From: Natribaculum luteum
GTDB taxonomy: Archaea > Halobacteriota > Halobacteria > Halobacteriales > Natrialbaceae
Reading direction: 5' to 3'
Length of the DNA stretch: 64,000 nucleotides
NCBI RefSeq assembly: GCF_023008545.1
Contig: NZ_CP095397.1
Coordinates: forward strand, 2,715,199-2,779,198
Of this stretch, positions 3,474 through 59,816 are shown one piece after another. A program made the position numbers and the translations under genes. How positions within the stretch are numbered: the stretch's first letter is position 1; the number at the start of each line of letters is the position of its first letter. Below the pieces are notes generated by a model, which worked only from the letters and a program-made list of their open reading frames with translations, ran no database searches and had not been told where the DNA came from.

Positions 3474-4756
3474 GTGTCGTCACCTCCGTTGGGAGTCGAC
3501 TCGAGCGGTTTCAGGGGCAGTACCTCCGCGCCGAGCGAGTACAGCAGCAGGCCGACGGCGACGATTCCCAGGCTTGTGAGCCACTCGACGGTCGAGGGAA
3601 CGTACGAGCCGTGGGGCAGGCCTTCCATCACCGGAAGGATCTGGGGTGGGACGACGATGTTGAACCGGACGGCCACGATGCCGACCACGACGAACAGCCC
3701 GGCGATCGCCGCCGGGAGCGGCGACCGTCGCCACGAGCGCTTGCTCAAGATGACAAGCGGGAACACCCAGCCGAAGCCGACCATGAACCACCAGAACGAC
3801 CACGACATCTCGCCGAAGAGGATGACGAGCCACGTCTCGAGTTCGTGCGGGTGGAGGCTGTTGATCGCGATGAGTGCCTCGATGGCGGTGAGGGCCGCGT
3901 CGGTGAGGACGAACGCCGCGAGCAGCTGTCCCAGCCGGTCCAGCAGGTCGCGGTCGACGGCGTCGCCGGCGATCAGTTTCGTCCGGACGACGTAGAGGAT
4001 CGTCACGAGCGCGGTTCCCGAGACCACCGCCGAGACGACGAAGATGATCGGGAACAGCCCGCTGTTCCAGTACGGCCGGGCCTTCGCGACGGCGAACAGC
4101 ACGCCCGTCCCGCCGTGGACCATGAAAATCGCCAGCGGGATGCCGACCAGACCGGCGCGTTTGAGCCACCGACGGTCGGTCCGTCCCGATTCTTCGCCCG
4201 TCGACGTGCGTCCGAGGGTCAACAGCCGGCAGAGCGTCGCTCGCCAGCCACGAGCGCGCGCCGCGACGCGTGCGAGGTCGAGGCGCATCGAGAAGTACAG
4301 CTCCGTGACGAGGACGGCGACGTACGCGACGTACGCGTGAACCTCCCAGGACAGCGCCGAGGTCGGCTGTCGCCAGACGAACGGGTAGTACATGCGGTCC
4401 ATCCGGCCGAGGTCGACCCAGACGAACAGCAGCGCCACGATCATGCTGATGACCGCGGCGAACAGCGCGTCCCGGTCGATCTGCTCGAAGCCCTCCATCT
4501 CGAAGACGTTGGCGAGCGTGCTCACGAGGAACGCGCCGGCCGAGAGGCCGACGAAGTAGATGTAGAACGCGACCCACGCGCCCCACGGGGTCACACTCGA
4601 GAGGTTCGTACTCGCCATGCCGACCGTGAGCCGTCGCCACGTCGCCCACCCGCCGACCAGCAGGAGGACGGCGAGGAGGCCGTACCACGCGTACCGGACC
4701 GTCTCGCTCCGGAACCCGGGGTCGTATCGTTCCGTGATGTCCGTTATCGTCGACAT
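3470..4756 (-). CDS. NrfD/PsrC-type polytopic membrane anchor subunit of the Mo-oxidoreductase.
   Basis: 428-aa protein with many predicted TM helices. It sits between the FeS and Mo subunits and overlaps the Mo-subunit start by 4 nt. Confidence 0.85.
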   Translation of the reverse strand: MSTITDITERYDPGFRSETVRYAWYGLLAVLLLVGGWATWRRLTVGMASTNLSSVTPWGAWVAFYIYFVGLSAGAFLVSTLANVFEMEGFEQIDRDALFAAVISMIVALLFVWVDLGRMDRMYYPFVWRQPTSALSWEVHAYVAYVAVLVTELYFSMRLDLARVAARARGWRATLCRLLTLGRTSTGEESGRTDRRWLKRAGLVGIPLAIFMVHGGTGVLFAVAKARPYWNSGLFPIIFVVSAVVSGTALVTILYVVRTKLIAGDAVDRDLLDRLGQLLAAFVLTDAALTAIEALIAINSLHPHELETWLVILFGEMSWSFWWFMVGFGWVFPLVILSKRSWRRSPLPAAIAGLFVVVGIVAVRFNIVVPPQILPVMEGLPHGSYVPSTVEWLTSLGIVAVGLLLYSLGAEVLPLKPLESTPNGGDDT

Positions 4757-9828: not shown

Positions 9829-9918
9829 CCGTCAGACGGACTACTGTCAGTCATTTCCGGTGCAATCGCAACCGTCCTGCGGTTGCACGGGTAAATCGGT
9901 ACAGCAGACCGTATCAGG
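9829..9918. repeat. Family-B palindromic element, copy B1, flipped. The right-arm sequence ggtacagcagaccgtatcag is the complement of the family left arm.
   Basis: Shares the outer arms (ctgatacggtctgctgtacc / ggtacagcagaccgtatcag) with copies at 14.2, 16.4, 43.1 and 56.6 kb. It has an inner stem gcaaccg/cggttgc. The TGA of the minus-strand cTGAtacgg is the stop codon of the quinone-oxidoreductase-like gene. Confidence 0.7.
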
Positions 9919-10867
9919 GAACGACGACGAGTTTCCCGAGGAAGCTCTCCGAGAGGACGTCCTCCTGTGCGTCGGCGACGTCCGCCAGGTCGTACGTTCG
10001 GTCGACGACCGGTTCGACGTCGCCACGTTCGTACAGCCTGGCGAGACGCTCGAGGACGGCCGCGACGTCGGGCGTGTTGAACATGCTGACGTGGTGGACG
10101 GTGAGCGCCTTCCCTCGCGCGGCAGGGACGTTCGGGAACGTCGCCTCGAGGTCCGTGTTACCGATCGCGGCGACGTCCGCGTCGAAGGCCGCGACGCGAC
10201 AGTCCAGCCCGAGGTAGTCGTCGAGTCGGTGATCGAGGATCGCGTCGGGTGCGCCCGCGGCCTCGATCCGTTCCTCGAGGTCGTCGGCCGCGTAGTCGAT
10301 TACGGTCTCGGCACCGAGGTCGGCGAGACGGTCGTGGTACTCGGGGGCGGCGGTCGTCGTCACGTCCGCGCCCGTCGCGGCGGCGAGCTGGACGGCGACG
10401 TGTCCGACGCCGCCGTTGCCGCCGTGGACGAGCGCCCGCTCGCCGGGCTCGAGGTCGCAGGCGTCGACGAGCGACTGCCAGGCGGTGACGCCGACGAGCG
10501 CGCCGGCGGCACCCGTTTCGAAGTCGACCGACGCGGGCAGCGTGGCGGCGAGGTCGTCGGGGACGGCGACGTACTCGGCGCAGGTCCCCGGATCGTCGTT
10601 GCCCAGCCCGGTCGCGAACACGCGGTCGCCGGCCTCGAAGTCGGCGTCCGCGCCCGTCTCCTCGACGACACCCGCGACGTCGGAGCCGGTGATCCAGGGC
10701 AGGTCGCCAGGCGGGTACGACCCCTCGCGGAAGTAGGTGTCGACGGGGTTGACCGCCCCTGCTTCGACGCGAACGAGGAGTTCGTCGGCAGCCGGTTGGG
10801 GTCGGTCGATCTCGTCGACGGTCAGTACCTCGGGTCCGCCGTGGTCGTGGTATCGAACGGCGCGCAT
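9914..10867 (-). CDS. Zn-dependent alcohol dehydrogenase / NADPH:quinone oxidoreductase family protein (MDR superfamily). The start is placed at internal ATG (MRAVRYHD).
   Basis: MRAVRYHDHGGPEVLTVDEIDRPQPAADELLVRVEAGAVNPVD is a typical quinone-oxidoreductase N-terminus. The upstream 49 codons of the ORF are a translation of repeat element A1. Confidence 0.8.
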   Translation of the reverse strand: MRAVRYHDHGGPEVLTVDEIDRPQPAADELLVRVEAGAVNPVDTYFREGSYPPGDLPWITGSDVAGVVEETGADADFEAGDRVFATGLGNDDPGTCAEYVAVPDDLAATLPASVDFETGAAGALVGVTAWQSLVDACDLEPGERALVHGGNGGVGHVAVQLAAATGADVTTTAAPEYHDRLADLGAETVIDYAADDLEERIEAAGAPDAILDHRLDDYLGLDCRVAAFDADVAAIGNTDLEATFPNVPAARGKALTVHHVSMFNTPDVAAVLERLARLYERGDVEPVVDRTYDLADVADAQEDVLSESFLGKLVVVP

Positions 10868-10920
10868 ACGGACACGAAGAACGGCCGTCGTAAAAACGTC
10901 CGCGAGGCGTGCTCGAGTGG

Positions 10921-11040
10921 GTTCATACTGCCGGACAACACGGTTCAGACATCGATCGCACTCGAGACGCTGTCGTCGCTGACGACAGCCGTCGAGACGC
11001 GATCGAGTAGTCACTGACTGTTGTCCGGTAGTATCAGAAC
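10921..11040. repeat. Family-A nested palindromic element, copy A1, about 120 bp.
   Basis: About 90% identical to 29477..29592 in inverted orientation. Outer arms gttcTGAtactaccggacaac / gttgtccggcagtatgaac. Inner perfect 9-bp inverted repeat gctgtcgtc-agc-gacgacagc. The TGA in cTGAtac is the stop codon of fhs. Confidence 0.75.
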
Positions 11041-12758
11041 AGCCCGGTGATCGTCCCGTCCGCCTCGAGGTCGACGTCCGTCGCGGCGGGGTCAGACGGC
11101 AACCCGGGCATCGTCAGCACGTCGCCGGTGAGCGCGACGAGAAAGCCCGCGCCGGCCGCTGGCCGAATCTCGCGGACGGTGAGCGTCCAGTCGGTCGGGA
11201 CGCCCGTTCGTTCGGGGTCGTCCGACAGCGAGTACGGCGTCTTCGAGAGACAGACCGGCAGCTCCTCGAGTCCGAGCCGTTCGATCCGCTCGAGATCGTC
11301 GGGTGCCGAGTCGACGTACTCGACGTCTCGAGCGCCGTAGACCTCGGTCGCGACGGTCTCGATCGCCTCGCGGACCGTCGCAGAGGAGTCGTACAGCGGC
11401 TGTCCCCGTCCCGGTTCGTCGACGGCGTCGGTCACCAGCTGGGCGAGTTCCGTGCCACCCTCGCCGCCGTCCCGGTGGACCGTCGATTCGGCGGCCGGAA
11501 TCCCCCGCTCGGCGAACGCCTCGAGGACGGCGTCGACCTCCTCGTCTGTATCCTGGGGGAAGCGGTTGAGCGCGACGACGACGGGCATCCCGAGGCGCTC
11601 GAGGATCTCGACGTGGGCGAGCGCGTTCTCGAGGCCGTCCAGGGCGGCCTCGACGTCGGGTTCGGCCAGTCGCTCTGTCTCGCTCGGCCACATCGACAGC
11701 CCCTGGCGTTTCAGCGCGCGGACGGTGACGACCAGCACCGCGGCCTCGGGTGCGAGCCCCGTCTGGCGGGTGACGACGTCGACGAACTTCTCCGCACCGA
11801 GTTCCGAGCCGAACCCGCCCTCGGTGACGAGGTACTCGGCACCCGCGAGTCCGACGCGGTCGGCGATCGCCGTGTTCGTCCCGTGGGCGATGTTGGCGAA
11901 CGGGCCGCCGTGGACGAACGCGGGGACGCCCTCGATCGTCTGGACGAGGTTCGGACGCAACGCGTCGCGAAGCAGAGCGGCGACGGCACCGCCGACCTCG
12001 AGGTCGGCGACCGTGACGGGGTCGCCGTCGCGGTCGTAGGCCACGACGATGCGCTCGAGTCGCGCCTTCAGGTCCGCGTAGTCCTCGGCGAGGCCGAGCG
12101 TCGCCATCAGTTCCGAGGCGGCGGTGATCTGGAAGCCGCCTTCCCGCGGGACGCCGTTTGCCTGCCCGCCGAGACCCAGGACGATCTCCCGGAGTGCGCG
12201 GTCGTTGACGTCGAGCGCTCGAGGCCAGGTGACCGATCGCGAATCGATCGGCGGATCGGCTCCGTGGTGGAGGTGTGCGTCGACCGCGGCGGCGACGAGG
12301 TTGTGAGCCGACGTGAGCGCGTGGATGTCACCGGTGAAGTGGAGGTTGATGTCCTCCATCGGGAGGACCTGCGAGTAGCCGCCGCCGGCAGCGCCACCCT
12401 TGATGCCGAAGACGGGGCCGAGGGAGGGCTCTCGAATCGCGACCGCCGCCGACTCGCCGCGTTTGGCGAGTGCCTGGCCGAGTCCGACCGTCGTGACGGT
12501 CTTTCCCTCGCCCTGGGGCGTCGGCGTCATGGCCGTGACGAGGACGAGGTTCCCCGTCGCTTCGCGCTCGAGCGCCCGCTGGAGCGCGTCGACCGACGGC
12601 TTCGCGACGTGGTCTCCGTAGCGCTCGAGGTCGTCCGGCTCGAACCCAAGCTTCGCTGCGACGTCGGAGATCGGGCTGGGCGCTGCCGCACGTGCGATCT
12701 CGAGGTCGTCCGGTACGCTCTCGTCTTCGTCTTCCGGGTGGGGATCTGGTGGCGACAT
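11034..12758 (-). CDS. fhs: Formate--tetrahydrofolate ligase. The start is at ATG 12758 (MSPPDPHPEDE).
   Basis: Hallmark motifs GEGKTVTTVGLGQAL and PSLGPVFGIKGGAAGGGYSQV, and end-to-end similarity to FTHFS. Confidence 0.95.
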   Translation of the reverse strand: MSPPDPHPEDEDESVPDDLEIARAAAPSPISDVAAKLGFEPDDLERYGDHVAKPSVDALQRALEREATGNLVLVTAMTPTPQGEGKTVTTVGLGQALAKRGESAAVAIREPSLGPVFGIKGGAAGGGYSQVLPMEDINLHFTGDIHALTSAHNLVAAAVDAHLHHGADPPIDSRSVTWPRALDVNDRALREIVLGLGGQANGVPREGGFQITAASELMATLGLAEDYADLKARLERIVVAYDRDGDPVTVADLEVGGAVAALLRDALRPNLVQTIEGVPAFVHGGPFANIAHGTNTAIADRVGLAGAEYLVTEGGFGSELGAEKFVDVVTRQTGLAPEAAVLVVTVRALKRQGLSMWPSETERLAEPDVEAALDGLENALAHVEILERLGMPVVVALNRFPQDTDEEVDAVLEAFAERGIPAAESTVHRDGGEGGTELAQLVTDAVDEPGRGQPLYDSSATVREAIETVATEVYGARDVEYVDSAPDDLERIERLGLEELPVCLSKTPYSLSDDPERTGVPTDWTLTVREIRPAAGAGFLVALTGDVLTMPGLPSDPAATDVDLEADGTITGLF

Positions 12759-12915
12759 ACCCGATCGTACGAGGGCCGGGGACAAACGTTCTGGCTGCCG
12801 TTCTCGTTCGACGGGAACGACGACCGAATCGGCCACGCGGACAGTCGCTTTCGTCGACTCGTGTGAACCCTTTTGGCCGTTCGAGGCGAAGATCGGCTGT
12901 ACAGCGGGTGTAAGT

Positions 12916-13128
12916 ATGGAAAAGAACGTGGGCGGGATCGATCGAACCACACGCATCGTCGTCGGAGCGTTCCTCACTGTCGCCGGAGTCGCCGGACTGG
13001 CCGGCTACTGGGCCGTCGGCATCGCGATCGGTGTCGCAGCGCTTCTGGTCGGAGTGATCCTCGTCGTGACCGGTACGACCCAGAAGTGCCCGATCAACGA
13101 AGCCGCAGGCGTCGACACGACTCGGTGA
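12916..13128 (+). CDS. DUF2892 (YgaP-like) small membrane protein.
   Basis: GGIDRTTRIVVGAFLTVAGVAGL signature followed by two TM helices. 70 aa. Confidence 0.65.
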   Translation: MEKNVGGIDRTTRIVVGAFLTVAGVAGLAGYWAVGIAIGVAALLVGVILVVTGTTQKCPINEAAGVDTTR

Positions 13129-14229: not shown

Positions 14230-14317
14230 TCATATCGCCTGCTGTACCTGTTTCCCGGCGCACCCGCAAGCCGTCCGGCGGTTGCCCCAGAACTGACGTA
14301 CAGCAGACGGTATCAGG
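14230..14317. repeat. Family-B palindromic element, copy B2.
   Basis: tcatatcgcctgctgtacctg...cccgcaagccgtccggcggttgcccc...gtacagcagacggtatcagg. It begins 9 nt after the stop of the 2-hydroxyacid dehydrogenase. Confidence 0.7.
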
Positions 14318-16375: not shown

Positions 16376-16462
16376 TCATACGGACCGCTGTAAGTACTTA
16401 CCGCAGCGACCGCCCGACGGGACGCGGTCGCTGCGGAAAATAGTTACAGCAGACCGCATCAG
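16376..16462. repeat. Family-B palindromic element, copy B3.
   Basis: ttcatacggaccgctgtaag ... perfect 13-bp inner stem ccgcagcgaccgc/gcggtcgctgcgg ... ttacagcagaccgcatcag. The minus-strand cTGAtgcgg supplies the stop of the antiporter gene. Confidence 0.75.
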
Positions 16463-17688
16463 TCGTCCGACTGGATCACGCCGAGTGCGGCCGCGATCTG
16501 TCTCGCGAAGCCCGCCTCGACGACGACCGTCACGAGGATGACCAGAAAGACCGTGCCGAGCAGGACCTCCGCACCCGCGGGATCGGAGGGCGGCGTCTCC
16601 GTCTCGAGGCGGATGGCAAAGAGGGTCGCGACCGATGCGGGGACGATCCCCCGAGGCCCGACGAAGCTGATGAACAGCCGTTCGTGGGTCGAGAACCCTC
16701 CACCGGCCGTCGAGACGAAGACGAGCAGCGGGCGAAGCAGCAGCGTCAACACGGCGACGACCGCGAGGCCGGCGACGCCGAGCGCGAGGAGTTCCGAGAA
16801 CTCGAGCAACGCCGCGAGCGTGATGAAGACGAACGAGAGGACGAGCAGCGTCACGTCCTGGTTGAACTGCAGGATGCTCTCCCGGTGGGGGAGTTCGAGG
16901 TTCCCGAGGGTAAAGCCCGCGGTGGCTGCGGCCGCGATGCCGGCCTCCGAGAACACCGAGTCCGCGATCGCAAAGGCGACGACTGCTCCGGCCAGCGCGA
17001 GTAACCGGGCCGTCTGTGGTGCCGCCTGCTCCGGGAGGTCGACCCGCGTGAGGAGATACCAGACGACGCCCGCGATCGCGAGGCCGGTGAGGATTCCCAT
17101 CCCGAGGCGCTGTGCGAACAGGAAGACGTACCCTCTTGGCGCGAGTTCCTGGGCCGTCATCGCCTTGAAGAGGACGATCGCGAGGATCGCCGCGGTGACG
17201 TCGTTGACGATCCCTTCTGTCTCGAGCGTCGTCGCGACCTCCTCGCGGACGGGAACGACCGCGAGGATCGGCGTGATGACCGTCGGCCCGGTCGCGACCA
17301 GCAGCGCGCCGACGAGAAGCGAGACGTCCAGACTCGCCCCGAGCAGGAGCCGGACGGTCAGGGCGGTCCCGACGAACGCCATCGCCGCGCCGACCGTGAT
17401 CAACCACCAGACCGCCCGCGGTGCGTTTCGGACGGTCTCGTGCTCGAGTCGGAACGATCCCTCGAAGACGATGATGGCGACGCTCACCCCGACGATCGTC
17501 GAGAGCGCCTCCCCGAAGGTGTCGGTCGTGATGACGCCGAGTCCCTCGGGGCCGATGGTGACGCCCGCGACGATGAGAAACAGCACGCTGGGGACGCGGT
17601 ACTTCGCGGCGAGAAACTGGGCTGTGACGCCGAATGCGACGATGGCCGCGACGAGCGCGATGAGGTCGAGGTCGACGTGGACGGACAC
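16459..17688 (-). CDS. Na+/H+ (monovalent cation:proton) antiporter, CPA1/NhaP-like.
   Basis: 409-aa polytopic membrane protein with motifs typical of the sodium/hydrogen exchanger family (GPEGLGVI, FEGSFRL). Confidence 0.75.
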   Translation of the reverse strand: MSVHVDLDLIALVAAIVAFGVTAQFLAAKYRVPSVLFLIVAGVTIGPEGLGVITTDTFGEALSTIVGVSVAIIVFEGSFRLEHETVRNAPRAVWWLITVGAAMAFVGTALTVRLLLGASLDVSLLVGALLVATGPTVITPILAVVPVREEVATTLETEGIVNDVTAAILAIVLFKAMTAQELAPRGYVFLFAQRLGMGILTGLAIAGVVWYLLTRVDLPEQAAPQTARLLALAGAVVAFAIADSVFSEAGIAAAATAGFTLGNLELPHRESILQFNQDVTLLVLSFVFITLAALLEFSELLALGVAGLAVVAVLTLLLRPLLVFVSTAGGGFSTHERLFISFVGPRGIVPASVATLFAIRLETETPPSDPAGAEVLLGTVFLVILVTVVVEAGFARQIAAALGVIQSDD

Positions 17689-25951: not shown

Positions 25952-27322
25952 ATGTCTACGGAAAGTCACGACGTAGTGGTCATCGGCGGCGGAACCGCCG
26001 GCTGCTTCGCCGCGGCGACCGCTGCCCAGGAAGGGGTCGACGTCGTCCTCCTCGAGCGCAAGACCGAGGAGGAGGCGGGACACATCGCCTGTGGCGACGG
26101 AATCAAGGGCGCGAGTGCGTTTCCCGACGTCGTCGACCGCGACCGGCTCGACGAGGAGGCGTTTACCAACCGGAACATCAGCAGGGCGATCTTCGAGAAT
26201 CCCCAGACCGGCGAGTCGATCGACGTCCCGTTCGACGAGTCCGGCGGCGTCGTCGACCGCTGGACGTACGGGCGGGTGCTCCTCGACGAGGCCGACCGTG
26301 CCGGCGCGGAGATCCACTACGAGACGGTCGTTCAGGACGTCGTCCAGCCCGACGATCGGGTCGAGGGCGTGACGGCGATGCGGAACGGAGAGCCAGTCAC
26401 GTACGAGGCCGACGTCGTCGTCGACGGGGCGGGATCGCTCTCGTTGCTCCAGGACAGGATCGACTTCTCCGGGTCGACGTTCGACACCAACGTCACCTAC
26501 CAGCAGTTCTGCTCTGCCTATCGTGAGATCCTCGAGGTCGACGACCCCGTCGACTGGGACGACGCGCTGGTGTTCAAGCCCACCGAGGAACTGGGCTACC
26601 TCTGGTACTTCCCGCGCTCCTCGACGGAGATCAACGCCGGGCTGGGCTTTCAGATGAACAAGCCGCCGATGAAACTCGTCGAGGACCTCAAACGCGACCT
26701 CGAGACCCGACCCGAGTTCCGGAACGCGACAGTGACGGACAAACTGGGTGCCGCTCTCCCGACCCGGCGGCCCTACGACTCGGCCGTCCATCCGGGGTAC
26801 GTCGCCGTCGGCGACGCCGCAGCCCACGTCAATCCCTGTACCGGCGGCGGGATTCCGGGCGCGGCGAAGGCGGGCCACTGGGCGGCGGAGGTCGCCATCG
26901 AGGCGATCGGCGACGGCGACGTCGGCGAGGCCGCGCTGTGGGAGTACAACCGACGCGTCCAGACCGGCTTCGGCAAGCGCTTCGCCGCGATGGACCTCTA
27001 CAACATTTTCGGCGGCGCTCACGACGTCGACGAACTGGTCTCGGTGATCACCTCGTTGCCCGGCCAGCAACTCGTCGACGCCATCGGGAAACGGGGCACT
27101 GCCTCCATGGGGCTCGGCCTGAAGCTCAAGACGATCCTGAAGACGTTCGGCCACTGGGACGTCCTCTACGAACTCTACAGGGTCCAGAGTCTCGCCGCCG
27201 ATCTCAAAGACGTCTACGACTCCTACCCGGGCGACCCGGCCTACTTCGACGCCTGGCAAAAAGAGCGCGACGCCGTCATGGACCGACTGTACGACGTCAC
27301 GGGTGCGGAGCCGAAGTACTGA
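25952..27322 (+). CDS. Geranylgeranyl reductase family FAD-dependent oxidoreductase (digeranylgeranylglycerophospholipid reductase-like).
   Basis: FAD-binding VVVIGGGTAGCFAA and GD motif. The 456-aa length is typical of haloarchaeal GGR. Confidence 0.8.
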   Translation: MSTESHDVVVIGGGTAGCFAAATAAQEGVDVVLLERKTEEEAGHIACGDGIKGASAFPDVVDRDRLDEEAFTNRNISRAIFENPQTGESIDVPFDESGGVVDRWTYGRVLLDEADRAGAEIHYETVVQDVVQPDDRVEGVTAMRNGEPVTYEADVVVDGAGSLSLLQDRIDFSGSTFDTNVTYQQFCSAYREILEVDDPVDWDDALVFKPTEELGYLWYFPRSSTEINAGLGFQMNKPPMKLVEDLKRDLETRPEFRNATVTDKLGAALPTRRPYDSAVHPGYVAVGDAAAHVNPCTGGGIPGAAKAGHWAAEVAIEAIGDGDVGEAALWEYNRRVQTGFGKRFAAMDLYNIFGGAHDVDELVSVITSLPGQQLVDAIGKRGTASMGLGLKLKTILKTFGHWDVLYELYRVQSLAADLKDVYDSYPGDPAYFDAWQKERDAVMDRLYDVTGAEPKY

Positions 27323-27345
27323 TACTATCTGACAATAGCCAGTAC
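27316..27345. repeat. Short hairpin starting with cTGAtac at the geranylgeranyl reductase stop. It is a minimal family-A/B-like terminus.
   Basis: gtacTGAtactatctgacaatagccagtac, with arms gtactg/cagtac. The TGA is the stop codon of the geranylgeranyl reductase. Confidence 0.5.
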
Positions 27346-29476: not shown

Positions 29477-29592
29477 CTGTTACTACTGGACAACGGTCAG
29501 TGACTACTCGATCGCGTCTCGCCGTCTGTCGCCGCTGGCGACAGCGTCTCGAGTGCGATCGATGCCTGAACCGTTTTGTCCAGCAGTATGAC
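29477..29592. repeat. Family-A nested palindromic element, copy A2.
   Basis: About 90% identical to the reverse complement of 10921..11040. The terminal TGA is degenerate here (ctgttac). Confidence 0.75.
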
Positions 29593-40828: not shown

Positions 40829-41503
40829 ATGACGACCGTCGCCGAGATCACGCTGTCCGCGGCAGACCTCGCGCTCGAGGAGACGATCACCTCGTTTCCG
40901 GACGCCGAGTTGCGCGTCGAGAGCGTCGTCGCCGAAGGGCCGTTGCGACCGATGCCGCTGGTCTGGATCGGCGGCGTCGACGTCGACGACCTCGAGGACG
41001 GCCTCGAGGCCGATCCCTCGGTCGAGACGTTCACGCGACTGCTCGAGGAGCCTGACCAGCGGGAGTGGCTGTACCGATTCGAGTACGCCGACGTCGTCAC
41101 CGACCGCTGTGGAATCGTCTTCGAGCACGACGGCACGGTCCTCGACGCGGAGTGTTCGTCGGGTCGCTGGACGCTTCGGCTGCTGTTCCCCGACCGGGAC
41201 TCCCTCTCGAGTGCGATCGCCGATCTCGAGGACCTGGACGTCCGCATCGACGTCAAGCGGATGATCGACGCCGGGCGCGACGGCGATCTCGAGGTCAGTG
41301 CGGCGCTGACCGAGGCCCAGGAGGAGGCGGTCAGCGAGGCCTACAGGCGCGGTTACTACGACGTCCCGCGGGAGATTTCGCTCGAGGAACTCGCCGACGA
41401 ACTGGGGATCTCCCACCAGGCGCTGTCCGAACGGCTTCGACGGGCGAACAAGGTGCTCGCCGGCGAGCAACTCGACGAACCGACGCCCGAGCTGGCCCAC
41501 TGA
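40829..41503 (+). CDS. HTH_10 (Bat-like) family transcription regulator.
   Basis: C-terminal TEAQEEAVSEAYRRGYYDVPREISLEELADELGISHQALSERLRRANKVL. It is a paralog of 59112..59816. Confidence 0.75.
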   Translation: MTTVAEITLSAADLALEETITSFPDAELRVESVVAEGPLRPMPLVWIGGVDVDDLEDGLEADPSVETFTRLLEEPDQREWLYRFEYADVVTDRCGIVFEHDGTVLDAECSSGRWTLRLLFPDRDSLSSAIADLEDLDVRIDVKRMIDAGRDGDLEVSAALTEAQEEAVSEAYRRGYYDVPREISLEELADELGISHQALSERLRRANKVLAGEQLDEPTPELAH

Positions 41504-42574: not shown

Positions 42575-43144
42575 TTGAATCGTCCCGCCGCCGTATCGGC
42601 GAACGTGACAGAGTACGACGCAGTCGTCTACGACCTCGACGGGACGCTCGTCCGCCTCGACGTCGACTGGGACGCGGCGGCCGTCGACGTCCGCGAGGTG
42701 TACGAGGAGGCGGCCATCGACCCGCCCAGCGACGACCTCTGGGACCTGCTCGCGCTCTCGGAGGAGGTCGGCCTGGACGAAGAAGTCGAGGCGGTACTCG
42801 CCGCCCACGAACGCGACGGAGCGCGCACCTCGGAGCAACTCGCACACGCAGACGAGTTACTCGCCCGCGAGGGGCCCGTCGGCGTCTGTTCGCTCAACTC
42901 CGAGGCAGCCTGTCGCCTCGCCCTCGAGAGACACGGCTTGCTCGAGGCGGTCGACGTCGTTGTCGGACGGGACACGGTCACCAACCGGAAACCGCACCCG
43001 GAGCCGCTACTCGTGGCCGTTCGCGCGCTGTCGGTCGAACCGGAGCGGACGCTGTTCGTCGGCGACTCCGCGCGCGACGAGGAGACGGCGAAACAGGCGG
43101 GGACGGATTTCGAGTACGTCGGCGACGGTCCCTCCGGCCACTGA
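42575..43144 (+). CDS. HAD-family phosphatase.
   Basis: DAVVYDLDGTLV motif I and VGDSARDEETAKQAG motif IV. Confidence 0.75.
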   Translation: MNRPAAVSANVTEYDAVVYDLDGTLVRLDVDWDAAAVDVREVYEEAAIDPPSDDLWDLLALSEEVGLDEEVEAVLAAHERDGARTSEQLAHADELLAREGPVGVCSLNSEAACRLALERHGLLEAVDVVVGRDTVTNRKPHPEPLLVAVRALSVEPERTLFVGDSARDEETAKQAGTDFEYVGDGPSGH

Positions 43145-43230
43145 TACGGTCTGCTGTACCTGTGTACCGGGGCGGCCGCAAGACGGTGCGCGGTTGTCCC
43201 GGTACTGACGTACAGCGGTCCGTATGATAC
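43141..43230. repeat. Family-B palindromic element, copy B4.
   Basis: cTGAtacggtctgctgtacc tgtgta ccggggcggccgc aagacggt gcgcggttgtcccgg tactgac gtacagcggtccgtatga. The TGA is the stop codon of the HAD-family gene. Confidence 0.8.
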
Positions 43231-43256
43231 TGTCGGCCGACGGGACGACTGGACGA

Positions 43257-44051
43257 TCAGTCGTCGACCGCGAGCCGCTGCTGTCGTGCCTCCCGGAGGC
43301 CGTCGCAGATGCCACCCTGCCCGGACATGTTGACCGTCGCCAGTCGGCCGCGCCGGTGGACCAGATCGAACGACTCGGGATCGATCGGTTCGCCCTCCGG
43401 CGTTCTGAACAGCGCGTCGTCGGGAGTCGAGACGACGCCCGTCGCCTCGGCCTTCTCGAGGTAGGACTCGATCGGCTCCATCGGGACCGTCACCGCGAGC
43501 GCGCGGTCGCGCAGGTAGACGGCCGCGACGTCTCCCGTCTCGTCGGCCGGTTCGACGTCCGCCACCCGCAAGGCAGCGATCTGGGCTGGCTCGAGGCCGG
43601 CCTCGAGCAGCCGCTCGACGGCGTCGTACTGTCTGGCGATGCGCGCTTTCTCGTCTAACTCCGCACGGACGGCGTCGACGCCGCCGTCGGCGTCGGGGAA
43701 CGTCTCCTCGAACGACAGTCGCTCGTTTACTCCGCGGTTGATCACCTCGTCGTGCATGTGATCGCGGAGGATCACCCGCGTCTCCGTGACGCCGGGTAGC
43801 GCTTCGATCCCGTCGCGGGCGTCGACTGCCATCATCCAGGCAAAGGCCGGCGAACACCACGCCGTCGGGAGGGTGAACGCGACCGTCACGCGCTCGTCGT
43901 CGATCTCGATCGCGTCGACGTACTCGAGTTCGACGATCGAGCGGTCGAGTTCGGGATCGGTCACGTCGTCCAGGGCTTCGCGTACCCGCTCTCGGTTTGG
44001 CGCGTCGGCGCGTCGGTCGATCGTCTCGTCCGTATCGCGTGCGTCGGTCAT
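43257..44051 (-). CDS. DUF59 (MIP18-family) domain protein, probably related to FeS-cluster assembly.
   Basis: VREALDDVTDPELDRSIVELEYVDAIEID is the DUF59 signature. Its start overlaps the amidohydrolase stop as TGATG. Confidence 0.6.
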   Translation of the reverse strand: MTDARDTDETIDRRADAPNRERVREALDDVTDPELDRSIVELEYVDAIEIDDERVTVAFTLPTAWCSPAFAWMMAVDARDGIEALPGVTETRVILRDHMHDEVINRGVNERLSFEETFPDADGGVDAVRAELDEKARIARQYDAVERLLEAGLEPAQIAALRVADVEPADETGDVAAVYLRDRALAVTVPMEPIESYLEKAEATGVVSTPDDALFRTPEGEPIDPESFDLVHRRGRLATVNMSGQGGICDGLREARQQRLAVDD

Positions 44052-53860: not shown

Positions 53861-54050
53861 TGTCGTCGCCGCTCGAGAGTCGTTCGCATTCGACTGTCGC
53901 CGGCGAGGGTCAGTCGCTCTCGTCTGACGTTCTCGAACGAGGGTCGTTCGGACGGGATCGACTGTCGACACTGCGAACCGTTCTGAGGCGACGAGGAGCG
54001 TTCCACCGACGCGTCGCTCGGGGGAATGGGAGGTCGTGACTGGACCGGGC

Positions 54051-55131: not shown

Positions 55132-56592
55132 ATGACCACGTTCGACGCAGACGGCATCACGCTCGAGCAGGTATCGGAGTACGTCTGGGAGATTCCACGG
55201 GAGGGGGACATGCGCGTTCCCGCTCGCGTGTTCGCGAGCGAACTCCTGCTCGAGGAGATCGCCGGTGACAAGACCCTAGAACAGTTGAAAAACTCGACGC
55301 AGCTGCCGGGAATGACGAAGTACGGGATCTGCATGCCCGACGGCCACCAGGGCTACGGCTTCCCGGTCGGCGGTGTGGGGGCGCTCGATGCCGAAGACGG
55401 CTGTATTTCTCCGGGAGCGGTCGGCTACGACATCAACTGCGGCGTCAGGATGATGAAAACTAACCTGGCCTACGACGACGTACAGGGCACCGAACAGGAG
55501 CTCGTCGACGCCCTGTTCGAGAACATTCCGTCGGGGCTGGGCGGCGGCGGCGTCGTCGAGACGGACGTCGACACCATCGACGAGATCCTCGAGGGTGGCG
55601 TCCGGTGGGCGCTCGAGAACGGCCACGCCGTCGAGGACGACCTGGCCCACTGTGAAGACGAGGGCTTCCGCGCGGAGGCCGACGCCTCGAAGATCTCCCA
55701 GAAGGCGAAAGACCGCGGGAAGAATCAGGTCGGCTCGCTGGGATCGGGCAACCACTTCCTCGAGGTCCAGCGAGTCACGGACGTCTTCGACGAGACGATC
55801 GGCGACGCGTACGGACTCGAGGAGGATCAGATCGTCGTCCTCATCCACTGTGGGTCGCGAGGGCTGGGTCACCAGACGTGTAACGATTACCTGCGAAAGA
55901 TCGAAAAACAACACCAGGGGCTGTTGAACCAGCTCCCGGACAAGGAACTCGCGGCCGCACCCGCGGGCTCACAGCTCGCAGAGGACTACTACGGCGCGAT
56001 GAACGCAGCGATCAACTTCGCGTGGGTCAACCGCCAGCTCATCATGCACCGCACGCGGCAGGTGTTCGAGCAGGTCTTCGATCGGCCGTGGCAGGAGATG
56101 GGGATGGAACTGCTCTACGACGTCGCCCACAACATCGCGAAAAAGGAGACGCACACCGTCGACGGCGAGGAGGGCGAGTACTTCGTCCACCGCAAGGGAG
56201 CGACACGGGCGTTTCCGGCGGGCCACCCCGAGGTACCAGAGGCCTACCGCAGCGTCGGCCAGCCGGTCATCATCCCGGGCAGCATGGGGTCGGGCAGTTA
56301 CGTCCTCTCCGGTGGCGACAACTCGATGGAACTCACGTTCGGCTCGACGGCCCACGGCGCGGGTCGAGTGATGAGTCGCACGCAGGCGAAGAAAGACTAC
56401 TGGGGCGGCGACGTCCAGCAGGAACTGCGCGACCAGCAGCAGATCTACGTCAAAGCCCAGTCGGGTGCGACCGTCGCCGAGGAAGCGCCGGGGGTCTACA
56501 AGGACGTCGACGAAGTCGTCCGCGTCTCGGACGAACTCGGCATCGGCGACAAGGTGGCGCGGACGTTCCCCGTCTGTAACATCAAGGGCTGA
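55132..56592 (+). CDS. rtcB: RNA-splicing ligase RtcB.
   Basis: MPDGHQGYGFPVGG, DINCGVRM, and the HGAGR nucleotidylation site. Confidence 0.95.
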   Translation: MTTFDADGITLEQVSEYVWEIPREGDMRVPARVFASELLLEEIAGDKTLEQLKNSTQLPGMTKYGICMPDGHQGYGFPVGGVGALDAEDGCISPGAVGYDINCGVRMMKTNLAYDDVQGTEQELVDALFENIPSGLGGGGVVETDVDTIDEILEGGVRWALENGHAVEDDLAHCEDEGFRAEADASKISQKAKDRGKNQVGSLGSGNHFLEVQRVTDVFDETIGDAYGLEEDQIVVLIHCGSRGLGHQTCNDYLRKIEKQHQGLLNQLPDKELAAAPAGSQLAEDYYGAMNAAINFAWVNRQLIMHRTRQVFEQVFDRPWQEMGMELLYDVAHNIAKKETHTVDGEEGEYFVHRKGATRAFPAGHPEVPEAYRSVGQPVIIPGSMGSGSYVLSGGDNSMELTFGSTAHGAGRVMSRTQAKKDYWGGDVQQELRDQQQIYVKAQSGATVAEEAPGVYKDVDEVVRVSDELGIGDKVARTFPVCNIKG

Positions 56593-56678
56593 TACGGTCT
56601 GCTGTACCTGTGTCCCGGGGCGACCGCAAGACGGTTCGCGGTTGCCCCGGTACTTGACGTACAGCGGTCCGTATGAGA
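56589..56678. repeat. Family-B palindromic element, copy B5.
   Basis: cTGAtacggtctgctgtacc tgtgt cccggggcgaccgc aagacggtt cgcggttgccccgg tacttgac gtacagcggtccgtatga. The TGA is the rtcB stop codon. It is about 90% identical to B4. Confidence 0.8.
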
Positions 56679-56727
56679 GGGTCTCTCGCCCGACTCTTGC
56701 TTCGAGAGCGCAGCCCGTCGTCGCTCG

Positions 56728-57996
56728 CTACGTCCGCTCTCGCACGACGTCGACGTCCTCGACGTGCCGCGTACCGGACGCCGGTGCGTCCGCGATCGAC
56801 CACCAGAGCGACGCCGCGAACAGGGTCCAGGCGACCGCGATCAGGGCGTACCCGCCGAGCGTCAGCGCGTCGCCGACGCCCTCGAGCGGCGGCAGCGCAC
56901 TCAGCCAGAGCGCGAGCACCCCGACGTTCACGCTCCCCACCTGGAGCCAGGACGGCCGCGGAACGGCGTCGGCAGCCGCGACGACGTTCTCGAGAAATCG
57001 ATCGCCGTCGGTCCGGTCGAGTGCGACAGCCGCGACCGGGAGGAACGCCATCGCGAGCTGGAGCATCCACCCGAAGACGAGACCGTCGATGGCCGCGACC
57101 TCGATCGCCCCGGCGGGGACGACGTCCGGAAGCAGCAACACGAACGGCGCCCACGGCACCGGGAAGACGAGCCACAGGTACGCCCCGAGGACGAGCGCGA
57201 CGCGACTGTTCGGGCTGCGATCGCTGGCCCGGCAGGTGCCGACGACGTTCGCGAGGAGCGCGACGGTCCCGCCGACGTAGACGACGAGTCCGAGCATCGT
57301 GAGCGCGTGGCGGGCGAGCCACGGACCGGCGACGAGTCCGCCAGCGCCGAGCGTCAGTCCCCAGAACGTGACCGGGACCAGGTGCGGATAGCGGAGGTCC
57401 GTCTCGAGGAGGACGGGGAGGACCAGGAGGAGCGTCGCGGCGACGACGAGCGCGAGGAAGCCCCAGACGTTGGCGTGGACGTGCGCTTCGATCGAGCCGA
57501 AGTAGCCGCCGGGCCCGTGGACGTTCGACAGCATGCCGAGCGCCGCGAGGAGCCCTGCGACGAGGAACCACGGGGCGATCCGGTAGTAGCGAAGCAGTTC
57601 GTGACCGCCCGCGCTCGTCCGGTAGACAGTCACCGCGAGGAGTGCGAGCGCCACCAGGACCCCCGTCGCACCGACGACTGCAGTGATGGTCGACCCGGCC
57701 GCCATGCCGATCAGGACGAGCGGATAACTGGCGTTCAGCACCAGCCACTGCAGCCATCGAGAACCCTCGTTGATGTCCGCTCTCGAGCCGTCCGCCGCGC
57801 CGACGAGAGACGGCAGGAGGCCGAACAACGCCTGTGTCATCCCGCCGATGGTGACGAAGTGGATCGTCAGCCACCGGAGTCGGGGGAGCGATTCGATTAG
57901 CCCTGCCTCGAACGCCAGCCGGCCGCCGACGGCGAGCAGTCCGACCGTCAGGTACAGTCCGGCGACGAGCAGGAACGGGTCCTTGCGCATTTGCAT
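56728..57996 (-). CDS. Polytopic membrane protein of about 12 TM helices. It may be NnrS-like.
   Basis: 422 aa from ATG 57996 (MQMRKDPFLL). It has conserved His residues in TM segments (EAHVHANVWGF). Family assignment is tentative. Confidence 0.45.
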   Translation of the reverse strand: MQMRKDPFLLVAGLYLTVGLLAVGGRLAFEAGLIESLPRLRWLTIHFVTIGGMTQALFGLLPSLVGAADGSRADINEGSRWLQWLVLNASYPLVLIGMAAGSTITAVVGATGVLVALALLAVTVYRTSAGGHELLRYYRIAPWFLVAGLLAALGMLSNVHGPGGYFGSIEAHVHANVWGFLALVVAATLLLVLPVLLETDLRYPHLVPVTFWGLTLGAGGLVAGPWLARHALTMLGLVVYVGGTVALLANVVGTCRASDRSPNSRVALVLGAYLWLVFPVPWAPFVLLLPDVVPAGAIEVAAIDGLVFGWMLQLAMAFLPVAAVALDRTDGDRFLENVVAAADAVPRPSWLQVGSVNVGVLALWLSALPPLEGVGDALTLGGYALIAVAWTLFAASLWWSIADAPASGTRHVEDVDVVRERT

Positions 57997-59111: not shown

Positions 59112-59816
59112 CTAGCGTTGGCCACTCTGGAAGCGGTCGCTCGAGTCGCCCTCGTCCGGGGGACCGACCTCGATCGCGTCTTCGACGAGCGTCCGGTGTG
59201 CGCGCCGAAGCCGTTCGGACAGCGCCTGGTGAGAGATCCCGAGTTCGTCGGAGAGGCCTTCCATGTCGACCTCGCGCGGGATCTGGTAGTAGCCTCGCTG
59301 GAGTGCCGTCACGAGCGTCTCGTGTTGGGCGTCGGTGAGCCCGTACCGGCCGTGTCGATCCTCGTTCAGTTCGTGGATCTTCTCGATGTCGAGCTGGAGG
59401 CCCCGGTCGGTCACGAAGTCGTAGGTCCGCGAGAGTGCGTCACGCTCGGGAAAGAGGATCCGGAGCCGCCACCGGTGGGCGTTGCCCGAGGCGTCGAGGA
59501 TCGTCGCTTCCTCCTCGGTGAGCACGTGGACGATCACCGCGACGTCTTCGACCCAGCTCATCCGGTAGAGGCGCTCGTCGTCGAGGTCGGTGAGCAGTTC
59601 CATGTCTTCGACGCTCGGATCTGCCTCGAGCACCTCGTCGAGGTCGGCCAGGTCCGACTCGCCGTCCGAGAACCAGACGTACGGCATGACGCGGTCCTGT
59701 TCGTGGGCGACGACTCGCTCGACCTCGACGTCGATCCCGGATACCGACTCGAGCGTTCGTCGGAGCGCGAACTCCTCGGTCGGGATCGCGAGTTCGGCGA
59801 TCGTACTCGTTCCCAT
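59112..59816 (-). CDS. HTH_10 (Bat-like) family transcription regulator.
   Basis: TDAQHETLVTALQRGYYQIPREVDMEGLSDELGISHQALSERLRRAHRTL. It is a paralog of 40829..41503. Confidence 0.75.
   Translation of the reverse strand: MGTSTIAELAIPTEEFALRRTLESVSGIDVEVERVVAHEQDRVMPYVWFSDGESDLADLDEVLEADPSVEDMELLTDLDDERLYRMSWVEDVAVIVHVLTEEEATILDASGNAHRWRLRILFPERDALSRTYDFVTDRGLQLDIEKIHELNEDRHGRYGLTDAQHETLVTALQRGYYQIPREVDMEGLSDELGISHQALSERLRRAHRTLVEDAIEVGPPDEGDSSDRFQSGQR

What the first reader, a model, noticed from the sequence alone, without database searches (positions are those of the whole stretch)
56589..56678. The element's terminal CTGATAC supplies the stop codon of the upstream gene
In copies B4 (HAD-family gene, TGA 43142-43144) and B5 (rtcB, TGA 56590-56592), and in A1 (fhs, TGA on the minus strand at 11034-11036), the TGA within the first 'cTGAtac' of the element is the gene's stop codon. 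Copies B1 and B3 sit to the right of minus-strand genes, so their left-arm TGA is on the plus strand and cannot be used. Instead the same symmetric motif at the right arm, read on the minus strand, supplies the TGA for the quinone-oxidoreductase-like gene (9914-9916) and the Na+/H+ antiporter gene (16459-16461). Because the element is a palindrome with CTGATAC at one end and GTATCAG at the other, it can terminate ORFs approaching from either side. This implies either insertion-site specificity for stop codons, or selection for a structure that begins exactly at the stop (translation termination or 3'-end formation).
Basis: seen in the sequence. Interest (0 to 1): 0.8.

Follow-up and report, generated by a model that had tools for sequence, protein, structure and literature searches.

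The report
Mobile hairpin element duplicating stop codons
The TGA at the edge of this 81-base palindromic repeat is the gene's own stop codon, copied when a small non-coding transposable element that inserts at T-N-A triplets landed on it; the overlap is an ordinary by-product of transposition, although I found no description of this element family.

Summary
The window comes from Natribaculum luteum, a haloarchaeon. Five genes (ADH-like, FTHFS, Na+/H+ antiporter, HAD, RtcB) do end in a TGA that directly abuts a ~80-nt (B family) or ~108-nt (A family) hairpin repeat, and their C-termini are native.

The element is not bounded by CTGATAC at one end and GTATCAG at the other. Each copy is flanked by a direct repeat of one triplet: TGA..TGA, TCA..TCA, and rarely TAA..TAA or TTA..TTA. 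This holds in 36 of 47 genome and plasmid copies and 39 of 49 metagenome copies.

In the sister species N. longum the rtcB site is empty. It reads ...aagggcTGAgagggtc..., which is the window's left flank, one TGA, then its right flank. The stop codon therefore pre-existed and was duplicated as a 3-bp target-site duplication.

The elements are MITE-like: terminal inverted repeats, a TNA duplication, no coding capacity, and presence/absence differences between relatives. The TNA target with a 3-bp duplication is the signature of the IS1031 subgroup of IS5. No parent transposase was found.

Copies at stops exceed a uniform non-coding TNA null (17%). They do not exceed a null restricted to 3' ends (43%), so TNA targeting plus purifying selection is sufficient. 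I found no support for a selected RNA structure.

Sister species carry different families at the same stop codons. Copies also flip in place.

The parts
56590..56592 (+). rtcB stop codon TGA, the gene-proximal copy of the 3-bp target-site duplication of B5
   Evidence: ORF 55132-56592 with the RtcB Pfam profile complete to the last residue. The same TGA is present at the empty site in N. longum L121 and N. breve L122.
56593..56673 (.). B5 core, 81 nt. It comprises the TIR TACGGTCTGCTGTAC / GTACAGCGGTCCGTA, an inner 13-bp stem and a 10-nt loop.
   Evidence: Fold energy is -28.5 kcal/mol as DNA and -55 as RNA, z about -6.5. The core is absent from N. longum and N. breve.
56674..56676 (+). Distal copy of the duplicated TGA of B5
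   Evidence: The window reads TGA-core-TGA-gagggtctctcgcc. N. longum reads TGA-gagggtctctcgcc.
43142..43227 (.). B4: TGA (HAD stop, 43142-44), an 80-nt core, then TGA (43225-27)
   Evidence: The orthologous copy is present in N. breve (L250).
16376..16461 (.). B3: TCA, an 80-nt core, then TCA (16459-61, the stop of the minus-strand Na+/H+ exchanger gene)
   Evidence: It is conserved in N. longum and N. breve, and its apical loop is flipped in N. longum.
14230..14315 (.). B2: TCA, an 80-nt core, then TCA. It is intergenic, 9 nt downstream of the 2-hydroxyacid dehydrogenase stop (14218-20), so it is not at a stop codon.
   Evidence: The relatives carry a 5'-truncated copy.
9832..9916 (.). B1: TCA, a 79-nt core, then TCA (9914-16, the stop of the minus-strand ADH-like gene)
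   Evidence: The relatives carry an A-family element between the same TCA..TCA.
10923..11036 (.). A1: TCA, a 108-nt A-family core (TIR TACTGCCGGACAAC), then TCA (11034-36, the stop of minus-strand fhs)
   Evidence: The relatives carry an ~80-nt B-like element between the same TCA..TCA.
29478..29591 (.). A2: TGT, a 108-nt A-family core, then TGA. One flank is mutated and the copy is not at a stop codon.
   Evidence: (I2, 89% complementary to A1)
27320..27344 (+). Stop TGA of gene 25952-27322 followed by a 22-nt remnant, TACTATCTGACAATAGCCAGTA, that resembles an A/C-family end
   Evidence: Inference from TIR similarity only.
43228..43259 (.). Possible older element remnant, TACTGTCGGCCGACGGGACGACTGGACGA, between the distal TGA of B4 and the TCA stop (43257-59) of the convergent FeS-assembly gene
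   Evidence: It resembles the A-family TIR TACTGTCGGACAG seen. Inference.

Best explanation
B5 and its relatives are copies of a superfamily of very small (about 75-110 nt), non-coding, almost fully palindromic transposable elements of haloarchaea. They are MITE-like.

Mechanism. A transposase supplied in trans cuts the target at a T-N-A triplet with a 3-nt stagger. It joins the element ends (TAC...GTA) to the cut, and gap repair duplicates the triplet. This last step is inferred. When the triplet hit is a gene's TGA or TAA stop, the gene keeps an intact stop on its side and an unchanged protein. The duplicate sits on the far side of the element.

Why copies sit at stops. Insertions into coding sequence or promoters are removed by selection. 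Stop codons are TNA sites that selection keeps in place. Surviving copies therefore pile up exactly at stop codons, and the same stops are reused.

Shown here:
- terminal inverted repeats
- a direct TNA duplication with all four middle bases
- precise empty and filled sites
- no coding capacity
- many dispersed copies across Natrialbaceae chromosomes, plasmids and metagenomes

Inferred:
- The enzyme is a DDE transposase of the IS5/IS1031 type. This rests only on the TNA target with a 3-bp duplication.
- Arm-to-arm recombination or template switching keeps the palindrome intact and flips copies in place.
For: 1. Direct repeats.
- The flanking triplets are identical in 36 of 47 copies from genomes and plasmids.
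- They are identical in 39 of 49 copies from an independent metagenome sample.
- TGA, TCA, TAA and TTA all occur. Only one copy (L074) has complementary flanks, TGA..TCA.

2. Empty sites.
- N. longum L121 reads aacatcaagggcTGAgagggtctctcgcc, which is the window sequence minus the core and one TGA.
- At a second site, a 78-nt C-family copy with a TGA duplication is present in N. breve (L122 8786-8869) and absent in N. longum and the window.

3. There is no target consensus beyond TNA.

4. With copies oriented by the element, the middle base of the duplication is G in 17 and C in 20.

5. Nested insertions occur: B inside A in L043 and B inside B in L313.

6. The IS1031 subgroup of IS5 is reported to prefer 5'-TNA-3' and to make an exclusive 3-bp direct repeat (PMC12016507; PMC1676026).

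7. Against a null restricted to 3' ends, the expected share at stops is 43%. The observed 5/7 and about 23/45 are not in excess (P = 0.13 and 0.18).

8. The C-termini are native.
Against: - No autonomous partner with matching TIRs and no transposase gene was found in about 0.9 Mb of fetched haloarchaeal DNA.
- The TIR (TACGG...) does not resemble the one IS1031-group IR I could read, GAACCTGTCTAGTATCT.
- About 20% of copies lack a perfect duplication.
- Against the simplest null (all non-coding TNA, 17%), stops are over-represented 2- to 4-fold (P = 2e-3 in the window, 2e-7 pooled).
- Two of five stop sites carry a different element family in sister species. This hints at hot spots or in-place replacement that plain random TNA insertion does not predict.
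- Full-length hairpin covariation (14 of 29 pairs with changes on both sides, 0 of 500 shuffles reaching the observed value) goes beyond what TIR recognition alone requires.
Confidence: 0.85

Rival explanations
1. True stop-codon or 3'-end targeting. The mobilising enzyme, or a resident element, actively directs insertion to stop codons or gene 3' ends, or to junctions that already hold an element. On this view the stop-codon association is mechanistic and not only a result of selection.
For: - Copies at stops exceed the uniform non-coding TNA expectation: 5/7 and about 23/45 against 17% (P = 2e-3 and 2e-7), and 15/49 in metagenomes.
- The ADH and FTHFS stops carry different families in N. luteum and in N. 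longum/N. breve, at the identical TCA.
- B4 appears to sit between the HAD stop and an older remnant.
- Similar 'switch_repeats' are reported for Haloquadratum small mobile repeats (PMC3119063 supplement).
Against: - With a null that tolerates only convergent gaps and the first 40 nt 3' of tandem gaps, the expected share is 43% and the excess disappears.
- About half of copies are at non-stop TNA sites, including a divergent promoter region (L123 4854-4937) and site Y.
- There is no sequence preference beyond TNA.
- A-family copies outside the window are mostly intergenic.
Confidence: 0.12
2. Functional 3'-UTR hairpin. The element was selected, or domesticated after insertion, as an RNA structure that begins at the stop codon. 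Its role would be mRNA 3'-end formation, stabilisation, or translation termination control.
For: - The hairpin is very stable (-55 kcal/mol as RNA, z = -6.8).
- The stems are kept by compensatory changes across genera.
- Many copies would be transcribed as part of a 3' UTR, given their position.
Against: - The rtcB orthologues of two sister species work without it.
- Copies occur at non-3' sites and in both orientations relative to the gene.
- G:U and A:C mismatches on the sense strand number 31 and 28 (P = 0.79), so there is no sign of selection on one RNA strand.
- There is no Rfam match and no T-run after the stem.
- Covariation can come from arm-to-arm homogenisation of a DNA palindrome. 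Flips of this kind are seen directly.
Confidence: 0.05
3. Single-strand (Y1/HUH) element of the IS200/IS605-PATE or REP/RAYT type. It would insert 3' of a short fixed target and make no duplication, and the right-hand TGA would be the element's own cleavage site.
For: - The element is a hairpin, as needed for recognition by Y1 transposases.
- Haloarchaea are rich in IS605-type elements and PATEs (PMC3119063).
- A single copy flanked by TGA..TGA fits either model.
Against: - The element has true terminal inverted repeats reaching its ends, whereas PATEs have none.
- The middle base of the flanking triplet varies among copies (G, C, A, T) and matches on both sides in about 80% of them. That is expected for a duplication, not for one target-derived and one element-borne site.
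- In element orientation the middle base is G in 17 and C in 20, so there is no fixed strand. In-place flipping weakens this last point.
Confidence: 0.04

Closest known systems
MITEs mobilised by the IS5 family, IS1031 subgroup (target 5'-TNA-3', exclusive 3-bp direct repeat; PMC12016507, PMC1676026)
   Same: Both have a TNA target, a 3-bp duplication (TGA in the cited ISLrh case), terminal inverted repeats, and a cut-and-paste type of footprint.
   Different: No IS1031-type transposase or full-length IS with these ends was found. The TIR sequence (TACGGnCTGCTGTAC) is unlike the ISLrh IR. The elements are much shorter than typical MITEs and are palindromic along their whole length.
Small mobile repeats (SMR; HqIRS41-43, HqIRS55) and 'switch_repeats' of Haloquadratum walsbyi (Dyall-Smith et al. 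2011, PMC3119063)
   Same: Both are haloarchaeal, 79-122 bp, non-coding and high in copy number. Both have prominent inverted terminal repeats and no known transposase. [quoted passage not shown]
   Different: SMRs were reported to make no target duplication and to prefer the palindromes of PATEs and IS605 elements. Here a 3-bp TNA duplication is clear and the targets are ordinary intergenic or stop-codon TNA sites. The sequences could not be compared, so a relationship is untested. A T..A duplication could be mistaken for an extension of the ITR.
Bacterial intergenic MITEs such as Correia/NEMIS (Neisseria) and ERIC (enterobacteria), which duplicate TA and often lie next to or overlapping gene ends (from my own knowledge, not checked here)
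   Same: Both are short hairpin-forming TIR elements with a short A/T-containing target that is part of stop codons. Both are co-transcribed with upstream genes.
   Different: Those elements occur in bacteria, have a 2-bp TA target and belong to other sequence families. Documented RNA-level effects (RNase III cleavage, promoters) have no counterpart tested here.
Eukaryotic PIF/Harbinger-Tourist MITEs (3-bp TAA/TTA duplication; from my own knowledge)
   Same: Both make a 3-bp T-x-A duplication. PIF/Harbinger transposases are relatives of IS5.
   Different: Those elements are eukaryotic, have an A/T-only middle base, and are longer.

Membership tests
MITE (non-autonomous TIR transposon) | Terminal inverted repeats | tested here: met
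   The 15-nt TIR TACGGTCTGCTGTAC / GTACAGCGGTCCGTA is present in all copies. The outer helix is paired in 90.9% of cells.
MITE (non-autonomous TIR transposon) | Target-site duplication of fixed length | tested here: met
   A 3-bp direct repeat flanks 36/47 and 39/49 copies. It is confirmed by two empty/filled site pairs.
MITE (non-autonomous TIR transposon) | Small, non-coding, multicopy and dispersed | tested here: met
   Copies are 68-111 nt with no ORF. There are 7 copies in 64 kb, 29 places in 9 plasmids and 64 metagenome loci.
MITE (non-autonomous TIR transposon) | Presence/absence differences between close relatives (mobility) | tested here: met
   B5 is present only in N. luteum. The C-family copy is present only in N. 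breve.
MITE (non-autonomous TIR transposon) | A parent IS with the same TIRs that encodes the transposase | tested here: inconclusive
   No long TIR pair enclosing a transposase was found in the fetched loci. Whole genomes could not be searched.
IS5 family, IS1031 subgroup derivative | 5'-TNA-3' target with an exclusive 3-bp direct repeat | tested here: met
   The definition comes from PMC12016507 and PMC1676026.
IS5 family, IS1031 subgroup derivative | TIRs similar to those of an IS1031-group IS, and a DDE (often frameshifted orfAB) transposase in the host | not testable with these tools
   ISfinder and whole genomes were not available. The one IR I could read (ISLrh, GAACCTGTCTAGTATCT) is not similar.
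IS200/IS605-derived PATE | No TIRs, sub-terminal palindromes, no target duplication, insertion 3' of a fixed oligonucleotide | tested here: not met
   TIRs reach the ends of the element. A duplication with a variable middle base is present. The definition comes from PMC3119063.
Haloquadratum SMR | 80-120 bp, ITRs unrelated to known transposons, no target duplication, insertion into PATE/IS605 palindromes | tested here: not met
   Size and ITRs fit. However, a 3-bp duplication is present and the targets are stop codons or intergenic TNA sites. Sequence similarity was not tested.
Known structured RNA (Rfam) or intrinsic terminator | A match to a curated covariance model, or a G+C stem followed by a T-run | tested here: not met
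   There are 0 Rfam matches at gathering score in the whole window and 0 terminator-like sites in 56400-56900.

The most novel reading that the evidence does not exclude
An unidentified archaeal transposase, or a process templated by resident elements, may specifically recycle stop-codon junctions. Hairpin elements of different families would be exchanged and flipped in place at the same TNA stop across sister species. The hairpins might then have been co-opted as 3'-UTR structures of housekeeping genes in Natrialbaceae.
Probability: 0.1. Interest if true: 0.65.

Novelty: new member of a known kind. Interest (0 to 1): 0.35.

Why it matters
The finding removes an apparent oddity. A repeat does not 'provide' stop codons to five unrelated genes; the pattern follows from a TNA-targeting transposon combined with selection.

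Annotators should expect CDS ends that overlap these repeats. They should not read the overlap as a mis-called stop or as a regulatory motif.

The element superfamily is abundant in Natrialbaceae, at about one copy per 9 kb in this window. It turns over between sister species and I did not find it described. It is therefore a handy marker of recent genome change.

It may also help explain the 'small mobile repeats' and 'switch repeats' of Haloquadratum, whose mode of mobilisation is described as enigmatic.

Tried and rejected
Only about 20 haloarchaeal loci were usable, and two of those (L017, L031) were chance matches inside a conserved coding sequence.

2. The viral-contig scan gave almost only chance matches. 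One ~85-nt pair turned up in L198. This line was dropped.

3. The search for an autonomous parent failed.
   - Long-range TIR pairs in L043, L106 and L129 are ends of separate small copies or noise.
   - The ORFs between them are ordinary genes: GNAT, PHP, NUDIX, ADH, MoCF, Usp.
   - L295, which has a left end with no right end, is a truncated copy sitting after the stop of an EmrE-like gene.

4. An exact look-up of the window's RtcB protein found nothing. The homologue search was needed to identify the organism and its relatives.

5. Site X (L123/L124 4854-4937 against the window near 17.85 kb) does not give a clean empty site, because the flanks differ. It was not used as evidence.

6. Orientation as an argument against strand-specific insertion is weakened by the in-place flip seen in L292/L293.

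7. Literature searches for a description of this family, or of MITEs targeting stop codons in archaea, found none.
Full report
**What is at the coordinates**

The window has high G+C. Its RtcB protein is 100% identical to that of Natribaculum luteum. The next-best proteins, at 99%, come from N. longum (GCA_023008565.1) and N. breve (GCA_023008585.1).

At 56590-56676 the sequence reads TGA, then an 81-nt near-palindrome (TACGGTCTGCTGTAC...GTACAGCGGTCCGTA), then TGA.

The 16-nt terminal motif occurs 9 times in the window with up to 3 mismatches, against 0.17 expected. These hits define five B-family copies:
- B1, 9832-9916
- B2, 14230-14315
- B3, 16376-16461
- B4, 43142-43227
- B5, 56590-56676

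A second family of 108-nt cores, with the TIR TACTGCCGGACAAC, has two copies: A1 at 10923-11036 and A2 at 29478-29591.

Five ORFs end exactly at an element edge:
- 55132-56592 (+)
- 42575-43144 (+)
- 9914-11014 (-)
- 11034-12977 (-)
- 16459-17688 (-)

They are real genes: RtcB, HAD, zinc-ADH, FTHFS and Na_H_Exchanger. Their Pfam alignments reach the last or nearly last residue.

Orthologues in dozens of Natrialbaceae have the same lengths: RtcB 486-490 aa and HAD 179 aa. PGAP annotation of four plasmids from other genera also ends a CDS on the flanking triplet of a B copy.

No copy has CTGATAC on the left and GTATCAG on the right. The triplets on the two sides of a copy are the same, not complementary:
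- B4 and B5 are TGA..TGA.
- B1, B2, B3 and A1 are TCA..TCA.

The outer T and A fit either a palindrome or a direct repeat. Only the middle base tells them apart, and it says direct repeat.

In 47 copies of three families from chromosomes and plasmids of about ten genera, 36 have identical flanking triplets. All four middle bases occur. Only one copy, a 111-nt element between convergent genes in L074, has TGA..TCA.

An independent metagenome sample was drawn with a 23-nt internal pattern that does not include the flanks. It gave 49 complete copies, of which 39 have direct repeats. Counted in the element's own orientation, these are TCA 20, TGA 17 and TAA 2.

Reconstructed targets show no consensus outside T-N-A. 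The 'C' of 'CTGA' is simply the usual G/C third codon position.

**Empty sites prove insertion and duplication**

N. longum reads ...aacatcaagggcTGAgagggtctctcgcccgac... This is the window's left flank, one TGA, then its right flank, with 84 nt fewer. N. breve also ends rtcB with TGA at the same codon and has no element.

A second clean pair involves a 78-nt C-family copy (TACTATCGGACGTAAC). It is flanked by TGA..TGA in N. breve, and the site reads ...ccgtttTGAggcgacgag... in N. longum and in the window. That TGA is not a stop codon.

So the stop codon existed first. The element landed on it and duplicated it. Nothing is 'supplied' to the gene.

**What kind of element this is**

The elements meet the definition of a MITE in these respects:
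- terminal inverted repeats
- a fixed 3-bp duplication
- no coding capacity
- high copy number
- nested insertions (B inside A in L043, B inside B in L313)
- presence/absence differences between sister species

A TNA target with an exclusive 3-bp repeat is what the literature gives for the IS1031 subgroup of the IS5 family (PMC12016507; PMC1676026). That is the only basis for naming a transposase type.

I found no parent IS and no transposase in about 0.9 Mb of fetched haloarchaeal DNA. The ends do not resemble the one IS1031-group IR I could read.

An IS200/IS605-PATE or REP/RAYT-type mechanism is unlikely. Those elements lack TIRs and duplications. A target-derived left triplet would also not keep matching an element-borne right triplet through four different middle bases.

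**Why so many copies sit at stops**

In the window, 5 of 7 copies abut a stop. In the pooled genome and plasmid set, about 25 of 47 do (about 23 of 45 once the orthologous B3 and B4 copies are counted once). In the metagenome sample, 15 of 49 do by a strict ORF criterion.

A crude gene model of the window gives 42 TNA-type stops and about 200 other non-coding TNA sites.
- If all non-coding TNA sites were equally likely and tolerated, 17% of copies would be at stops. The observed numbers are far higher (P = 2e-3 and 2e-7).
- If only convergent gaps and the first 40 nt behind a gene are tolerated, the expectation is 43% and the excess vanishes (P = 0.13 and 0.18).

Every TNA is a stop codon on one strand in some frame. 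In a 65% G+C genome with short spacers and promoters directly upstream of mostly leaderless genes, stop codons are a large share of the harmless TNA sites. The statement about leaderless genes comes from general knowledge of haloarchaea.

Targeting of TNA plus purifying selection is therefore enough to explain the pattern. True stop-codon targeting is not needed, though it is not excluded.

**No sign of a selected RNA function**

- The hairpin is very stable: -28.5 kcal/mol as DNA and -55 as RNA, with z about -6.5.
- It is preserved by compensatory changes: 14 of 29 pairs have changes on both sides, and 0 of 500 shuffles reach the observed value.
- In 20 stop-abutting copies oriented by the gene's sense strand, G:U and A:C mismatches number 31 and 28 (P = 0.79). 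Selection on the mRNA strand should favour G:U.
- There is no Rfam match in the window and no T-run after the stem.
- Sister species lack B5 altogether.

The covariation is better explained by homogenisation between the two arms of a DNA palindrome. Two observations show such events directly:
- The 10-nt apical loop of B3 (CCGACGGGAC in the window and N. breve) is reverse-complemented in N. longum.
- Two metagenome contigs (L292, L293) carry a 99%-identical element at the same site, with the same TCA duplication, in opposite orientation.

These flips also mean that the mixed orientation of copies cannot by itself be used to argue for random insertion orientation.

**Turnover at the same stop codons**

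Comparison with N. longum and N. breve shows the following:
- The ADH stop (window 9914-16) carries a B copy in N. luteum and an A-family copy in both relatives, between the same TCA..TCA.
- The FTHFS stop (11034-36) carries an A copy in N. luteum and an ~80-nt B-like copy in the relatives.
- The few bases just outside the distal triplet differ: tgggt against acgac, and a 'cg' indel. This suggests repeated excision and insertion, or replacement, with the gene-side triplet held fixed by selection.
- B3 is shared by all three species, and B4 at least with N. breve.
- B2 is 5'-truncated in the relatives.

This behaviour recalls the 'switch_repeats' of the 80-120-bp small mobile repeats of Haloquadratum walsbyi. 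Their mobilisation is called enigmatic, and they were reported to make no target duplication (PMC3119063). Whether those repeats are relatives with an overlooked T-N-A duplication is untested.

**Verdict**

A MITE-like hairpin element with a T-N-A target duplicated pre-existing stop codons.

I could not find the element family described, and a 2024 review of prokaryotic MITEs lists no such archaeal family. It is a new member of a known kind. Interest is modest. The points worth following up are the missing transposase, the reuse of the same stop codons by different families, and the in-place flipping.

Noticed in passing
window 9832-9916 and 10923-11036; L123/L124 12815-12928 and 11723-11808: Sister species carry a different element family at the same stop codon. 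The ADH stop has a B copy in N. luteum and an A copy in N. longum and N. breve. The FTHFS stop has an A copy in N. luteum and a B-like copy in the relatives. Both lie between identical TCA triplets, and a few bases differ just outside the distal triplet.
   Followed up: partly
window 16413-16422 compared with L124 (N. longum) and L123 (N. breve): The 10-nt apical loop of B3 (CCGACGGGAC) is exactly reverse-complemented (GTCCCGTCGG) in N. longum, while the stems are unchanged. This is a hairpin loop flip, as expected from recombination or template switching between the arms.
   Followed up: partly
L292 (about 3850-3950) and L293 (about 2950-3040), metagenome contigs: The same genomic site with the same TCA duplication holds a 99%-identical 80-nt element in opposite orientation in two samples. 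This is a whole-element flip in place, or an excision followed by re-insertion.
   Followed up: partly
window 27320-27344: The stop TGA of gene 25952-27322 is followed by a 22-nt mini-palindrome, TACTATCTGACAATAGCCAGTA, with an A/C-family-like end. It is probably an internally deleted remnant. A similar mini-element, TGA TACGGACTGCCGTA TGA, is at L043 1352-1371.
   Followed up: no
window 43228-43259; L250 3624-3655: Right after the distal TGA of B4 comes TACTGTCGG..., which resembles an A-family end, running up to the TCA stop of the convergent FeS-assembly gene. B4 may have inserted at the junction between the HAD stop and an older element.
   Followed up: no
L122 11459-11476 compared with L121 11459-13600: N. 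breve lacks about 2.1 kb (a 420-aa gene and an HTH_10 gene) that lies downstream of rtcB in N. longum and the window. The deletion starts right after the rtcB TGA, and the junction carries the filler TACTCC, which resembles an element end. This may be an element-associated deletion.
   Followed up: partly
L074 4893-5007: A 109-nt (core) element with the TIR TACGGACCGTTGTAC lies between convergent ORFs and is flanked by TGA on the left and TCA on the right. Each flank is the apparent stop of one ORF. It is the only copy with complementary rather than identical flanks.
   Followed up: partly
L043 1144-1338 and L313 about 2550-2700: Nested insertions occur. In L043 a B copy (TCA..TCA) sits inside an A copy (TTA..TTA). 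In L313 a B copy sits inside another B copy at an internal TGA. L043 (Natronolimnohabitans) has an element in several of its intergenic gaps.
   Followed up: partly
window about 53900-53965: The window has an extra stretch of about 66 nt (gccggcgagggtcagtcgctctcgtctgacg...) between the primase and acetyltransferase genes, relative to N. longum and N. breve. It is next to the site where N. breve carries the C-family copy, and appears partly to duplicate the neighbouring 'tcgactgtcg.cactgcgaaccgtt'.
   Followed up: no
window 41305-41462 and 59183-59340: A 158-nt inverted repeat at 72% complementarity (I1). It lies within or near genes that, by their position relative to the annotated relatives, may be HTH_10/BAT-type regulator paralogues. 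It was not examined.
   Followed up: no
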